Positions 25,481 to 28,212 of a stretch of 64,000 bases of DNA are shown here, piece by piece. The notes beneath the pieces are model-generated. The model saw nothing but the letters and a program-made list of their open reading frames with translations. It searched no databases and had not been told where the DNA came from. How positions within the stretch are numbered: the first letter of the stretch is position 1; each line of letters starts with the position of its first letter. A program made the position numbers and the translations under genes. The stretch is taken from the IMG/VR virus record IMGVR_UViG_3300020470_001965. The stretch is one strand, 5' to 3'. The stretch is from a virus.

Positions 25481-26616
25481 TGGGTACCACAGTCTTTAAC
25501 GCAAGGAAGGTAGACACCACAAAACAGCAGATGTTTTTTGGTCCTCCTTTAGGTATGCAACAGTACTGCACCTATAAGTACCCTGACTTTGATAAGTTAA
25601 CCCAGTCAATGCTAGGTTACTTCTGGCGACCTGAAGAAGTTTCACTTCAGAAAGACAGAGTGGATTATAAGACACTCAATTCACAACAGAAACATATCTA
25701 TACTTCTAATCTGAAGTATCAAATACTATTGGACTCTGTACAAGGCAGAGGACCAGGCATGGCATTTAAACCTTACTGTTCATTGCCAGAACTAGAAGGT
25801 GCCATGAGTGTGTGGGAATTTATGGAGGGGATTCACTCCCGATCCTATAGCCACATAATAAAAAATGTTTATTCAGACCCCAGTGAGGTACTAGATACCA
25901 CACTAAACGATGAGAAGATCATCAAACGTGCACAGTCTGTTACTAAAGCCTACGATGAATTTATTAATCAAGCACATCAATGGGACACAGGTAACATGTG
26001 GAGACCTGATTCAGCAGGTTCACCATCAGTAGAATGGTGTCGTAAGGATCTTAAAAGGTTATTATACAGAGCAGTTGCGAACGTTAATATCTTAGAAGGT
26101 ATACGTTTTTATGTTAGTTTCGCTTGCAGCTTTGCTTTTGGTGAACTTAAACTCATGGAGGGTTCTGCTAAAATTATCTCCCTTATTGCACGAGATGAGA
26201 ACCAACACCTTGTACTCACTCAAAAGATACTGAAGAAATGGGCAGAAGGTGATGACCCAATTTTTCTTGAGATCATTAAGGAAGAGAAAGAAAATGTAAA
26301 GCAAATGTTCATTGAGGCTGTAGAAGAGGAGAAAGACTGGGCAAATTATCTGTTCTCCCTTGGATCAATGATTGGATTAAATGAAAGACTACTTTCCCAA
26401 TACGTAGAGTGGATTGCTAATAGACGAATGAAGTCTATTGGTATCGAACCTATCTATGATATACCTGCCAGGAACAATCCATTACCATGGACTGAACACT
26501 GGTTAAATAGCAAGGGGCAACAAAATGCTCCTCAGGAAACTGAGATAGAGTCCTATGTAGTCGGGGGAATTAAACAGGATGTCCAAGAGAATACTTTTGC
26601 AGAATTTGAGCTCTGA
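25480..26616 (+). CDS. nrdB: Ribonucleotide reductase class Ia beta subunit
   Basis: FWRPEEV, LLDSVQGR, EGIHSRSY, EGIRFYVSF, RDENQH, QETEIESY. Confidence 0.98.
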   Translation: MGTTVFNARKVDTTKQQMFFGPPLGMQQYCTYKYPDFDKLTQSMLGYFWRPEEVSLQKDRVDYKTLNSQQKHIYTSNLKYQILLDSVQGRGPGMAFKPYCSLPELEGAMSVWEFMEGIHSRSYSHIIKNVYSDPSEVLDTTLNDEKIIKRAQSVTKAYDEFINQAHQWDTGNMWRPDSAGSPSVEWCRKDLKRLLYRAVANVNILEGIRFYVSFACSFAFGELKLMEGSAKIISLIARDENQHLVLTQKILKKWAEGDDPIFLEIIKEEKENVKQMFIEAVEEEKDWANYLFSLGSMIGLNERLLSQYVEWIANRRMKSIGIEPIYDIPARNNPLPWTEHWLNSKGQQNAPQETEIESYVVGGIKQDVQENTFAEFEL

Positions 26617-26847: not shown

Positions 26848-27024
26848 ATGCTGAGTAGTAAGTACAGACTGGAGTTGACAGATATCTGTTGTCGTATGAT
26901 GACTACTGATGGTATCGAAGTGTCATTAGAAGAACGGATCTGGATGAATAAGTTGTGCGAACATAACTTACATGCAAGAGAGTTGAGAGACTCTTTACTT
27001 TGTCCTTACAAGGTAGAAGGCTAA
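26848..27024 (+). CDS. 58-aa conserved cyanophage protein
   Basis: MLSSKYRLELTDICCRM...VSLEERIWMNKL. Confidence 0.7.
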   Translation: MLSSKYRLELTDICCRMMTTDGIEVSLEERIWMNKLCEHNLHARELRDSLLCPYKVEG

Positions 27025-27076
27025 AATTTGTAACGTACTTGCTAAATAGTATTAGCGTATGGTAACATACACGTAT

Positions 27077-27123
27077 CGTTCATCCCCTAGTAGTAGGGGA
27101 CGCAAGTAAGCCGACTCGGAACG
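27077..27123 (+). ncRNA. Glutamine riboswitch-like aptamer 1 (glnA/Downstream-peptide class)
   Basis: CGTTCA-TCCCCT..AGGGGA-CGCAAGTAAGCCGACTCG-GAACG; P1 CGTTC/GAACG. Confidence 0.75.
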
Positions 27124-27128
27124 GAGTT

Positions 27129-27304
27129 CGTTCATCCCATGATTCCCTTTATAATTGCTACTTCTTTAACATGCTCTGAGGCACATGAACTTGTCGATAA
27201 GATGAGATCTTATAGGGTCGAAGACGAAACGAAAGCAGAAATGATTTCGATAGTTAAGGAAGAGACTGACGGATGTTGGGACGCAAAAGCCGACTGAAGG
27301 AACG
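27129..27304 (+). ncRNA. Glutamine riboswitch-like aptamer 2 with an expanded P2 loop containing an ORF
   Basis: CGTTCA-TCCCA ...137 nt... TGGGA-CGCAAAAGCCGACTGAAG-GAACG. Confidence 0.7.
27139..27297 (+). CDS. 52-aa protein nested in aptamer 2
   Basis: MIPFIIATSLTCSEAHELVDKM...ETDGCWDAKAD; GGAG at 27123-27126. Confidence 0.7.
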   Translation: MIPFIIATSLTCSEAHELVDKMRSYRVEDETKAEMISIVKEETDGCWDAKAD

Positions 27305-27339
27305 GGGTCTAATCCACCTCACAATTCAGGAGAAAAACC

Positions 27340-27474
27340 ATGGCTGTAGTAACATACAGAGGTGTCAAGTATGACACCAACGCTCCCAAGCAGGAGCATA
27401 AGGAATGGGCAGAGAATGTCCAGAAGACAGAGCACACCTATCGAGGTGTTGCATATAAGCCATCGGCGGCATAA
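27340..27474 (+). CDS. DUF4278-type peptide (44 aa)
   Basis: SD AGGAG; TYRGVKY...TYRGVAY repeat. Confidence 0.8.
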   Translation: MAVVTYRGVKYDTNAPKQEHKEWAENVQKTEHTYRGVAYKPSAA

Positions 27475-27480
27475 CATTTG

Positions 27481-27507
27481 GAGGGTGTGTTGACACCCTC
27501 TTTTTTT
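27481..27507 (+). terminator. Rho-independent terminator containing the -35 of a possible talC promoter
   Basis: GAGGGTGT-gttg-ACACCCTC + T7; TTGACA 27490-27495, TAAACT 27512-27517. Confidence 0.8.
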
Positions 27508-27558
27508 ATGCTAAACTGGACGCAGTAAATCTAAATACTGTAGCGTCCTTCTTTTCAT

Positions 27559-28212
27559 ATGAAAATTTTCCTAGACAGTAGTAACGTAGAAGAGATCACT
27601 GCTGCCGTGGAGACGGGGTTAGTTGATGGTGTTACTACAAACCCATCCTTAATGCTTCAGGCAGGAGAAGATCCTAATGAAGTACTCAAACAAATTACTG
27701 GACTGTTCTCATGGGATGCTTCAGTATCTGCTGAAGTCAGCGGAGAAGTAGCAGAGAACATGCTAGACATGGCAGAGGAATATCTTGCCATTCATCCAAG
27801 TATTACAATCAAAGTCCCATGTAATATAGAGGGACTCAAAGCATGTAGAGAACTATCAAACGATGAGATACCTGTTAACGTTACTCTAGTATTCTCTACC
27901 GCACAAGCAATCCTTGCTGCTAAAGCAGGTGCTGCATATGTATCACCATTTGTAGGTAGGGTCAATGATAACTCTTTCAGTGGGGTTGAGTTGATCGAAC
28001 ACATCAGTAGAACTTATAAGAAGCATGATGTTGAGACACAAATCCTTGCAGCGAGTCTCAGGGATGTGTTTGATGTGTCAAAGTGTTACGAAGTGGGTGC
28101 AGATGTGGTAACCATGCCTCCAAAGATCTTCTGGGGGATGTATAATCATATTCTAACCGAGAAAGGGTTAGCCAAATTTAACGAGGACTGGAGGAAAGTC
28201 TTAGACCGATGA
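27559..28212 (+). CDS. talC: Transaldolase (TalC/FSA family)
   Basis: IFLDS, GVTTNPSL, TIKVP, NVTLVFS, YVSPFVGR, LAASLR. Confidence 0.96.
   Translation: MKIFLDSSNVEEITAAVETGLVDGVTTNPSLMLQAGEDPNEVLKQITGLFSWDASVSAEVSGEVAENMLDMAEEYLAIHPSITIKVPCNIEGLKACRELSNDEIPVNVTLVFSTAQAILAAKAGAAYVSPFVGRVNDNSFSGVELIEHISRTYKKHDVETQILAASLRDVFDVSKCYEVGADVVTMPPKIFWGMYNHILTEKGLAKFNEDWRKVLDR

What the first reader, a model, noticed from the sequence alone, without database searches (positions are those of the whole stretch)
27077..27474. Tandem glutamine-riboswitch-like aptamers, the second enclosing an entire protein-coding ORF in its P2 loop
Seen: two copies of CGTTCA-TCCC...GGGA-CGCAA(n)GCCGACT(n)GGAACG lie 5 nt apart. 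In copy 1, P2 is a short hairpin. In copy 2, P2 (TCCCA 27135-39 / TGGGA 27277-81) closes a 137-nt loop. A 52-codon ORF starts with the last A of the 5' P2 strand, and its last codons (WDAKAD-stop) are spelled by the 3' half of the aptamer. Its SD-like GGAG overlaps the end of aptamer 1. A DUF4278-type peptide gene and a terminator follow. Known: glnA/Downstream-peptide RNAs bind glutamine and precede DUF4278 genes in marine picocyanobacteria. Inference: translation of the nested ORF and folding of aptamer 2 are mutually exclusive. That would make a two-stage, ribosome-coupled nitrogen sensor controlling two peptides, one possibly a glutamine synthetase regulator.
Basis: partly seen in the sequence, partly recalled or inferred. 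Interest (0 to 1): 0.8.

Follow-up and report, generated by a model that had tools for sequence, protein, structure and literature searches.

The report
Gene nested inside double glutamine riboswitch
This cyanophage starts a small nitrogen-related transcript with a glutamine-sensing RNA built from two sensor cores joined through one shared helix, and one stem closes around a real 52-codon gene. Folding of the sensor and translation of that gene must therefore compete on the same RNA.

Summary
The window is a T4-like cyanomyophage (nrdB upstream, talC downstream).

The reading as two independent tandem aptamers is only partly right. "Copy 1" has only the AGUA half of the loop-E motif. "Copy 2" has only the UGAAG half. 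The segments next to these halves covary with each other across 69 related loci: AGCCGACU:AGCCGACU, AGUCG:CGACU, AGUCA:UGACU and GGACGG:CCGCCC.

So 27077-27305 is one composite sensor. It has an outer canonical glnA-type three-way junction. Its P3 helix opens into a second, inner glnA-like junction. The inner stem P2' (27135-39/27277-81) encloses the ORF 27139-27297.

The ORF is a real gene:
- It matches phrog_504, and the family has 296 clusters at 50% identity.
- Its frame is open in 54 of 54 relatives.
- It has two invariant cysteines.
- Median dN/dS is 0.48.

Its AUG lies in P2'. Its last six codons and its stop codon are the sensor's J2/3, P3 strand and loop-E. P2' covaries even at the cost of the conserved Trp.

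A DUF4278 (IF17-like) gene and a terminator follow. Glutamine binding and regulation were not tested. This scan has noted the same layout in many other phage genomes. I found no paper that describes it.

The parts
27039..27070 (+). Likely promoter. It has a -35-like TTGCTA (27039-44), a -10-like TAACAT (27064-69) and a perfect NtcA-type box GTA-N8-TAC (27057-27070) that overlaps the -10.
   Evidence: Read. Related loci keep TTGACT about 38 nt before the element. 46 of 64 distinct upstream regions hold a perfect GTA-N8-TAC. The promoter role is inferred.
27077..27081 (+). Outer P1, 5' strand CGUUC. It pairs with 27300-27304.
   Evidence: Invariant in 15/15 and 52/52 aligned loci. RNAalifold on ORF-less relatives pairs the first CGUUC with the last GAACG.
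27083..27100 (+). Outer P2 hairpin (27083-89 / 27094-27100).
   Evidence: All 5 counted pairs show changes on both sides among relatives. Pair probability is 0.8-1.0.
27101..27109 (+). J2/3 CGCA plus the 5' half of the loop-E motif, AGUAA.
   Evidence: Invariant CGCAAGTA. It matches the Rfam Glutamine consensus and the E-loop strand GAAGUAA of the crystallised aptamer (PMC5393176).
27110..27116 (+). P3, 5' strand GCCGACU. It pairs with 27288-27294.
   Evidence: Covariation between the two copies in 17 distinct strand combinations. Changes on both sides occur in 4 pairs of alignment A3 and 2 pairs of A4.
27119..27133 (+). Inner P1' hairpin: GAACG 27119-23, capping G 27124, loop 27125-28, CGUUC 27129-33.
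   Evidence: Both strands are invariant. The hairpin is predicted by RNAalifold. The choice of pairing partners rests on connectivity, not on covariation.
27135..27139 (+). Inner P2', 5' strand UCCCA. A27139 is also the A of the nested AUG.
   Evidence: It pairs with 27277-81. CG/UG/UA variation is kept as pairs in 52/52 loci. There are 40 distinct stem combinations, all with at least 4 pairs and up to 10.
27139..27297 (+). Nested gene of 52 codons (phrog_504 family). Predicted as a two-helix protein with invariant Cys12 and Cys46.
27277..27281 (+). Inner P2', 3' strand UGGGA. It also supplies the Trp-Asp codons.
   Evidence: Pair probability is 0.72-0.86 in the unconstrained fold.
27282..27287 (+). 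J2/3 of the inner core, CGCAAA.
   Evidence: GACGCA is invariant in all aligned loci.
27288..27294 (+). P3, 3' strand AGCCGAC. It also supplies the Lys-Ala-Asp codons.
27295..27299 (+). 3' half of the loop-E motif, UGAAG. It contains the nested gene's stop codon TGA (27295-97).
   Evidence: Identical to strand UGAAG of the crystallised aptamer. It reads U[GA]AAG in all relatives.
27300..27305 (+). Outer P1, 3' strand GAACG, plus the capping G 27305.
   Evidence: Invariant.
27328..27332 (+). Shine-Dalgarno AGGAG of the DUF4278 gene, 7 nt before its ATG.
   Evidence: Read. (A)GGAG is conserved in most relatives.
27340..27474 (+). DUF4278 (IF17-like) peptide gene, 44 aa, with two YRG motifs.
   Evidence: Pfam PF14105 28.4 bits against a 25.3 cut-off. 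phrog_5049 E 2.4e-16.
27480..27508 (+). Intrinsic-terminator-like hairpin followed by a T run.

Best explanation
Positions 27077-27305 form one composite glutamine sensor at the 5' end of a short transcript of about 430 nt.

Outer core: a canonical glnA-type three-way junction. P1 is the first CGUUC with the last GAACG. P2 is a hairpin. P3 is flanked by the loop-E halves AGUAA and UGAAG.

Inner core: P3 does not end in a loop. It opens into a second three-way junction with the same pocket-forming sequences (CGUUCA, P2', GACGCA, GAACGG). Its P1' is capped by the 4-5 nt 'linker'. Its P2' stem closes around a real 52-codon gene.

Geometry: the gene's AUG is the last pair of P2'. The 30S landing zone covers P1' and P2'. 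The gene's last six codons are P2', J2/3 and the P3 strand. Its stop codon lies in the only loop-E.

Inferred mechanism:
- A folded, glutamine-stabilised sensor hides the nested start codon.
- A ribosome on the nested gene melts P2', P3, loop-E and P1, which is the whole sensor.
- By analogy with gifB, glutamine binding favours translation of the downstream IF17-like DUF4278 peptide. The nested protein would then be made mainly when the sensor is unfolded.

Shown here: the sequence anatomy, covariation of P2, P2' and P3, and coding status of the nested gene. Inferred: which P1 strands pair, glutamine binding at one or both cores, and the direction of regulation.
For: Sensor identity:
- Rfam Glutamine hit of 34.7 bits on the first half.
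- The loop-E halves are split between the copies, and the segments beside them covary in 17 distinct combinations.
- On 15 ORF-less relatives, 95.6% of cells pair and 11 pairs change on both sides (4 of them in P3). 0 of 500 shuffles reach the covariation score, and slid controls give 34-56% paired.
- On 52 ORF-bearing relatives, 94.6% of cells pair and 0 of 500 shuffles reach the score.
- RNAalifold on ORF-less forms returns the nested P1/P1' topology.

P2' closure:
- 40 distinct stem combinations all pair. UCCU:AGGA and UCCUC:GAGGA replace UCCC:GGGA, and the peptide's Trp is lost with them.
- Predicted P2' closure averages 0.81 in natural sequences against 0.19 with codon-shuffled interiors. 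Natural is higher in 52 of 53 loci.

Gene status:
- phrog_504, E 1.7e-12.
- 296 representatives at E<=0.001.
- Frame open in 54/54, while the other two frames hold stops in 53/54 and 54/54.
- Both Cys codons vary synonymously.
- Median dN/dS is 0.48.
- Annotated as a CDS in P-SSM7, S-SSM7, S-CAM8 and P-HM2.

Context: DUF4278 downstream. DUF4278 is part of IF17, and the glutamine riboswitch is an ON switch for gifB (PMC6212724). The glutamine pocket is formed by P1 and J2/3 (PMC6698751).
Against: - No binding or expression data exist here.
- All four P1 strands are invariant. Covariation therefore cannot tell the nested pairing from a pseudoknotted cis pairing. The nested choice rests on strand connectivity and on RNAalifold.
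- The nearest-neighbour model puts the nested fold 6.4 kcal/mol above the MFE and gives P3 a probability of about 0. That model cannot score loop-E, A.C pairs, triples or ligand.
- No consensus structure was found between the sensor and the DUF4278 ribosome site. The read-out for the downstream gene is unexplained.
- Inside the ORF no position-conserved helix beyond P2' was found.
- dN/dS of 0.48 is only moderate constraint.
- I could not read Ames and Breaker 2011 or Ren et al. 2015, which might already mention this arrangement.
Confidence: 0.7

Rival explanations
1. Two independent glutamine aptamers in simple tandem, each folding on its own, the second with an ORF in its P2 loop.
For: At the sequence level there are two direct copies 5 nt apart. 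Rfam aligns copy 1 as a self-contained aptamer at 34.7 bits. Some ORF-less second copies reach 33-38 bits. Tandem glnA RNAs are mentioned in PMC2864571.
Against: AGUA occurs only in copy 1 and UGAAG only in copy 2. In the AGUCG/CGACU and AGUCA/UGACU classes neither copy can form a local P3. The A/U and U/A swap (AGCCGACA with UGCCGACU) breaks local hairpins but keeps the inter-copy helix.
Confidence: 0.1
2. The composite sensor works, but the nested gene is only a tolerated passenger in a variable stem, like homing-endonuclease genes in intron loops. Its translation has no regulatory link to glutamine sensing.
For: About a third of the related loci found by DNA pattern have a short hairpin in place of the ORF, with the same flanking sensor sequences. 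P2 of the outer core also varies widely in length. In P-HM2 it carries a second ORF.
Against: The start codon sits within one or two bases of the stem in all 54 loci and often pairs with a CAT. The reading frame always runs into the sensor core, and in nearly all loci the stop lies in loop-E. ORF interiors favour stem closure far more than shuffled ones. This geometry forces interference whether or not it is used.
Confidence: 0.15
3. Insertion of the ORF disabled sensing. The flanking aptamer-like sequences persist only because they encode the peptide's C-terminus or stabilise the mRNA.
For: The 3' half overlaps six codons, so protein constraint could conserve part of it.
Against: Conservation is absolute beyond the stop codon (AAGGAACGG) and before the start codon (CGTTCAT). 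The same sequences occur in ORF-less forms. P2' pairing is kept at the expense of the conserved Trp.
Confidence: 0.03
4. The insert is not translated. It is only a long structured extension of P2'.
For: The interior is predicted to fold so that its ends meet. No proteomic evidence was available.
Against: The frame is open in 54/54 while the other frames are closed. Indels come in multiples of three. Two Cys are invariant with synonymous codon variation. dN/dS is 0.48. The family has 296 clusters, nearly all 49-60 aa.
Confidence: 0.02

Closest known systems
Glutamine-I riboswitch (glnA RNA motif, Rfam RF01739), e.g. the Synechocystis gifB (IF17) leader (Klahn et al. 2018, PMC6212724)
   Same: P1 CGUUC/GAACG, a P2 hairpin, J2/3, a loop-E motif AGUAA/UGAAG flanking P3, and a position upstream of a DUF4278 (IF17-like) gene.
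   Different: - P3 is formed by two distant segments and opens into a second glnA-like junction.
- J2/3 reads CGC and the base after P1 is G, as in type II. The cellular type I consensus has CGG and C.
- One stem encloses a protein gene.
- Rfam scores are at or below threshold.
- Klahn et al. report glnA-type aptamers absent from marine picocyanobacteria, the hosts of these phages.
Glutamine-II riboswitch (Downstream-peptide motif, RF01704)
   Same: The same pocket sequences (CGUUCA, hairpin, CGCA, GGAACGG), a DUF4278/YRG peptide downstream, and marine picocyanobacterial ecology.
   Different: Type II closes the pocket by a pseudoknot inside a second hairpin. It has no loop-E and no three-way junction (PMC6698751). 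Here the score is 28.3 bits against a gathering score of 33.
[quoted passage not shown]
   Same: Two copies of a ligand-pocket motif within one folded RNA, related by duplication.
   Different: Here the two junctions share one helix head to head. Only one has a loop-E. Occupancy of the second pocket is unknown. This comparison is from my own knowledge and was not tested.
Leader-peptide ORFs inside riboswitch leaders (Salmonella mgtA leader with mgtL) and classical attenuators
   Same: Translation of an ORF embedded in a sensing leader competes with RNA structures that set downstream expression.
   Different: Those ORFs are short sensors of tRNA or proline supply, and their peptide is not itself conserved as a protein. 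Here the ORF lies inside the aptamer and encodes a conserved 49-66 aa two-cysteine protein family. This comparison is from my own knowledge.
Protein genes looped out of peripheral stems of group I introns in T4-like phages
   Same: A whole ORF sits in a stem-loop of a structured, functional RNA. Ribosomes and RNA folding can interfere.
   Different: The host RNA here is a metabolite sensor, not a ribozyme. The ORF's start and end overlap core sensor nucleotides instead of lying within the loop. This comparison is from my own knowledge.

Membership tests
Glutamine-I riboswitch (RF01739) | Score at or above Rfam's gathering threshold | tested here: not met
   34.7 bits against 35 for 27075-27127. 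There is no hit for the ORF-bearing half and no hit at the gathering setting. Relatives score 31-37.8 bits.
Glutamine-I riboswitch (RF01739) | P1 helix CGUUC/GAACG carrying the ligand pocket | tested here: inconclusive
   Both strand types are present twice and are invariant. Without variation, pairing and the choice of partner cannot be shown by covariation.
Glutamine-I riboswitch (RF01739) | P2 hairpin supported by covariation | tested here: met
   In outer P2 all 5 pairs change on both sides. Inner P2' pairs in 52/52 long forms, and 4 of its 5 pairs change on both sides in short forms.
Glutamine-I riboswitch (RF01739) | Loop-E motif (AGUAA / UGAAG) flanking a P3 helix | tested here: met
   Met only when the two copies are combined. 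AGUAA is at 27105-09, UGAAG at 27295-99, and the P3 helix between 27110-16 and 27288-94 covaries.
Glutamine-I riboswitch (RF01739) | Selective binding of L-glutamine with a structural change | not testable with these tools
   Needs in-line probing, ITC or SHAPE.
Glutamine-I riboswitch (RF01739) | Location in the leader of a nitrogen-related gene, typically DUF4278 | tested here: met
   A DUF4278 gene starts 35 nt after the sensor. The same holds in relatives.
Glutamine-II riboswitch (RF01704) | Gathering score and a pseudoknot within a 3' hairpin | tested here: not met
   28.3 bits against 33. The aligned 3' hairpin pairs are poor.
DUF4278 (PF14105), IF17-like peptides | Pfam gathering score | tested here: met
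   28.4 bits against 25.3. Two YRG motifs are present.
phrog_504 (phage protein family of unknown function) | Profile match over the full length | tested here: met
   E 1.7e-12, residues 1-50 on profile positions 1-52 of 53.
Leader-peptide attenuator | A short ORF whose translation selects between alternative leader structures | not tested
   Only the geometry is shown: the AUG lies in P2' and the stop lies in loop-E.

The most novel reading that the evidence does not exclude
The element is a ribosome-coupled switch with two outputs. Two glutamine pockets share one helix, which may make the response cooperative. When glutamine is low the unfolded sensor lets ribosomes onto the nested two-cysteine protein gene, and their passage keeps the sensor open. 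When glutamine is high the folded sensor silences that gene and turns on the IF17-like peptide. The phage would thus set two small host-directed proteins in opposite directions from one RNA according to host nitrogen status.
Probability: 0.35. Interest if true: 0.9.

Novelty: new variant of a known kind. Interest (0 to 1): 0.8.

Why it matters
Riboswitch aptamers are thought of as compact non-coding domains. Here a conserved protein gene lies inside an aptamer stem and shares its start, its last codons and its stop with core sensor nucleotides. That is an extreme case of overlapping RNA-structure and protein codes, and a natural system for studying competition between ribosomes and ligand-dependent folding.

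The head-to-head fusion of two glutamine cores through one P3 is an architecture that standard family scans miss or call as a single sub-threshold hit. Glutamine sensing in marine phages is therefore under-annotated.

The element is widespread in cyanomyophages of Prochlorococcus and Synechococcus. Named carriers are P-SSM7, P-HM2, S-SSM7 and S-CAM8, and S-PM2 has the ORF-less form. It precedes an IF17-like peptide, so it bears on how phages read and perhaps reset host nitrogen metabolism in the ocean.

Tried and rejected
- **Rfam at gathering thresholds:** no hit in the window.
- **Own genome:** none is held for this window.
- **Prokaryote genome scan:** a DNA-pattern scan for the 3' half gave mostly chance hits. 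The 8 real ones (7 showing the two-copy junction, 1 cut at a contig end) lie on contigs of MAGs and SAGs that I take to be phage DNA, though I did not check their gene content. I saw none in an isolate cyanobacterial genome.
- **The look-up of encoding contigs:** One substitute search found another nested locus and one found nothing.
- **Nested protein's fold:** the AlphaFold model is a generic helical hairpin (pLDDT 74). It has no significant PDB match, and the Atlas returns only viral hypothetical clusters.
- **Conserved helix inside the ORF beyond P2':** RNAalifold found none.
- **Expression platform between the sensor and the DUF4278 start:** RNAalifold found no consensus. By eye, a short hairpin of the G run after P1 with a downstream CC(C) is possible in many loci. 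So is complementarity of UACUU to AAGUA. Neither is consistent across loci, and the window lacks UACUU.
- **Literature:** I found no description of the nesting or of the shared P3. Ames and Breaker 2011 and Ren et al. 2015 are not held.

Full report
**Setting.** The window is a T4-like cyanomyophage. A class Ia ribonucleotide reductase beta gene ends at 26616, and a transaldolase gene (Pfam TAL_FSA, E 1e-53) starts at 27559. All 114 matching phage records are cyanophages or marine single-cell virus contigs. No whole genome is held for the window.

**The observation.**
- TCGTTCATCCC occurs exactly twice in 64 kb, at 27076 and 27128.
- GACGCAA..GACT..GGAACGG occurs exactly twice, at 27099-27124 and 27280-27305. 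None was found in 100 shuffles.
- Rfam gives no hit at gathering thresholds.
- With permissive settings, 27075-27127 matches Glutamine RF01739 at 34.7 bits (cut-off 35, E 1e-5). It matches Glutamine-II at 28.3 bits (cut-off 33).
- TCCCA 27135-39 and TGGGA 27277-81 bracket 137 nt.
- The 52-codon ORF 27139-27297 starts on the last A of TCCCA. It ends WDAKAD-TGA within the second 3' half.
- The next ORF (27340-27474, 44 aa) passes the DUF4278 cut-off.
- A terminator-like hairpin follows at 27480-27501.

**Relatives.** I collected loci in three ways:
- DNA similarity in named phages.
- A search with the nested protein in IMG/VR.
- A scan for the junction pattern between the two copies.

After removing duplicates there were 69 distinct two-copy loci. 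54 have an ORF in the second copy and 15 have a short hairpin there. Among loci found by DNA pattern alone the ratio is about two to one.

Named phages with the ORF form, each with the ORF annotated as a hypothetical protein:
- P-SSM7 (PSSM7_205).
- S-SSM7 (SSSM7_289).
- S-CAM8 (SXCG_00118).
- P-HM2 (PHM2_180).

S-PM2 and AG-345-P14 have the short form.

In all ORF forms the ATG lies 9-11 nt after GTTCA. In nearly all, the reading frame runs through GGGA-CGC-AAA-..GAC and stops at TGA or TAA inside U[GA]AAGGAACG.

**The two copies are not independent.** Three facts show this.
- The copies differ in a fixed way. Copy 1 always reads CGCA-AGUA-x-CGGAACGG. Copy 2 always reads CGCA-AA-y-U[GA]AAGGAACGG. 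AGUAA and UGAAG are the two strands of the loop-E motif that flanks P3 in the crystallised aptamer (sequence and E-loop assignment quoted in PMC5393176; Rfam consensus). Each copy therefore holds only one half of that motif.
- The segments x and y covary with each other:
  - AGCCGACU with AGCCGACU.
  - AGCCGACA with UGCCGACU.
  - AGUCG with CGACU.
  - AGUCA with UGACU.
  - GGUCG with CGACU.
  - GGACGG with CCGCCC.
- In the AGUCG/CGACU class neither copy can form any local P3. The A/U swap breaks local hairpins but keeps the inter-copy helix.

Pair counts support the composite structure.

| Alignment | Cells paired | Slid controls | Pairs changed on both sides | Of these in P3 | Shuffles reaching the covariation score |
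|---|---|---|---|---|---|
| 15 ORF-less elements (A3) | 95.6% | 34-56% | 11 | 4 | 0 of 500 |
| 52 ORF-bearing elements (A4) | 94.6% | 31-56% | 8 | 2 | 0 of 500 |

On the ORF-bearing set the long-range P2' pairs in 52 of 52 sequences, with CG, UG and UA at its fourth position.

**Architecture.** The simplest structure that keeps the canonical connectivity is nested.
- Outer core, which matches the glnA consensus throughout: P1 (27077-81 with 27300-04), A, P2 hairpin (27083-27100), CGCA-AGUAA, P3 (27110-16 with 27288-94), UGAAG.
- Inner core, inside P3: a second three-way junction with the same strand order. P3 strand, CG, GAACG (27119-23), loop (27124-28), CGUUC (27129-33), A, P2' (27135-39 / 27277-81), GACGCAAA, P3 strand.

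RNAalifold on the ORF-less forms gives this nested P1/P1' topology by itself. All four P1 strands are invariant, so covariation cannot exclude a pseudoknotted arrangement in which each copy closes its own P1. I prefer the nested form for one reason. Only it places P1a-A-P2-CGCA-AGUAA-P3a and P3b-UGAAG-P1b in the canonical junction.

The glutamine pocket of both known classes is built from the terminal P1 pairs and the J2/3 strand, capped by a long-range pair (PMC6698751). Both phage cores carry those sequences unchanged. Two pockets are therefore possible, but I did not test this.

The phage cores read CGC in J2/3 and G after P1. The cellular type I consensus reads CGG and C. This would keep the capping pair as C:G. 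I infer that from the consensus and from memory of Ren et al. 2015, which I could not read.

**The ORF-bearing stem.**
- Across 40 distinct P2' combinations at least four pairs always form, and up to ten. The ATG often pairs with a CAT.
- Where the 3' strand changes from UGGGA to GAGGA or AGGA, the 5' strand is UCCUC or UCCU. The otherwise conserved Trp then becomes Glu or another residue. RNA pairing is kept at the protein's expense.
- In the window the unconstrained fold gives P2' a probability of 0.72-0.86.
- Over 53 loci the mean is 0.81. It is 0.19 when the interior codons are shuffled, and the natural sequence is higher in 52 of 53.
- No position-conserved helix inside the ORF was found.
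- The thermodynamic model does not recover P3. It puts the nested fold 6.4 kcal/mol above the MFE. It cannot score loop-E, A.C pairs, base triples or ligand.

**The nested ORF is a gene.**
- It matches phrog_504 over its full length, E 1.7e-12.
- A profile of 30 diverse members finds 296 representatives at 50% identity with E<=0.001. Nearly all are 49-60 aa, or longer only through upstream start calls.
- The frame is open in 54 of 54 loci. The other two frames hold stops in 53 and 54 loci.
- Length differences are multiples of three.
- Cys12 and Cys46 are invariant with both TGT and TGC in use.
- Median dN/dS outside the sensor-encoded ends is 0.48.
- AlphaFold predicts two helices (12-24 and 29-42) at pLDDT 74.
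- No fold or family match gives a function.

**How it most likely works.** Shown:
- The AUG is the last pair of P2'.
- The region a 30S subunit must occupy covers P1' and P2'.
- The last six codons are P2', J2/3 and the P3 strand.
- The stop codon lies in the only loop-E, five bases before P1.

Inferred: the folded, glutamine-stabilised sensor blocks initiation at the nested AUG. A ribosome translating the nested gene unfolds P2', P3, loop-E and P1, which is the whole sensor.

By analogy with the gifB leader, glutamine binding turns translation on, and DUF4278 marks IF17-like proteins (PMC6212724). High glutamine should then favour the downstream peptide. The nested protein would be made when the sensor is open. 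The direction was not tested, and I found no conserved structure linking the sensor to the DUF4278 ribosome site.

**What is known.**
- Tandem glnA RNAs were noted in 2010 without detail (PMC2864571).
- Glutamine riboswitch hits in phages are reported from Rfam scans (PMC9004378).
- Klahn et al. do not mention phages.
- I found no paper describing a shared P3, a double core or a nested gene.
- Two key papers were not held.
- Standard scans see only single hits of 24-38 bits on these loci.

**Earlier notes of this scan.** They report the same layout in at least 73 other genomes and call the cores 'interlocked'. That wording led me to test inter-copy pairing. The covariation evidence above is my own.

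**Verdict.** This is a new variant of the glutamine riboswitch: two cores fused through P3, with a protein gene inside one stem. Binding and regulation remain to be shown.

Noticed in passing
window 27057-27070; related loci L001-L148: There is a perfect NtcA-type box GTA-N8-TAC (GTATGGTAACATAC) just upstream of the sensor, overlapping the likely -10. 46 of 64 distinct upstream regions of related loci hold a perfect box. It lies either about 60 nt upstream (before a TTGACT -35) or 13-20 nt upstream. The two positions would suggest opposite NtcA effects.
   Followed up: partly
L189 (P-HM2) 46-480; also L003 (AG-345-L05): In P-HM2 the outer P2 also encloses an ORF (PHM2_179, 67 aa, two Cys, N-terminus like the nested family). 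Its ATG pairs with TATCAT. Its last codons GRK-TAA are spelled by GGA-CGC-AAG-UAA, so its stop lies in the AGUAA loop-E strand. Both P2-type stems therefore carry genes. Copy 1 of L003 shows a similar lack of a nearby 5' half.
   Followed up: partly
L148; proteins P0163, P0166, P0153, P0169 and others: Some family members read through the sensor core in another frame and end ...TEGTG, which translates ACU GAA GGA ACG GGG. Others (P0160, P0170, P0172, P0180) have unrelated C-termini and may lie outside a sensor.
   Followed up: partly
L188 440-640: In one relative the ATG in P2' opens only a 7-codon mini-ORF. The family protein starts at a second ATG 25 nt further in.
   Followed up: no
window 26848-27024 (+): A 58-aa ORF just upstream of the promoter has four Cys and matches phrog_19028 (E 9e-23). 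A homologue precedes the element in AG-345-P14. Function is unknown.
   Followed up: no
window 27490-27517 (+): A promoter-like TTGACA-16-TAAACT with a TG extension lies inside and just after the terminator hairpin, ahead of talC.
   Followed up: no
DUF4278 genes downstream of related loci: There are two kinds of downstream peptide. One is a short MAQVTYRGV... form like the window's. The other is a longer MNTLNLIKKQI... form with YRG motifs and Cys residues. The second kind occurs mostly with the AGUCG/CGACU class of P3.
   Followed up: no
L155, L187, L150, L153, L162, L168, L186 (genome contigs): The element occurs on contigs filed under Prochlorococcus or Synechococcus SAGs and MAGs, and under unrelated MAGs (Dehalococcoidia, Verrucomicrobiales, Euryarchaeota). 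These include contigs of 189 and 194 kb, which look like phage genomes binned with cells.
   Followed up: no
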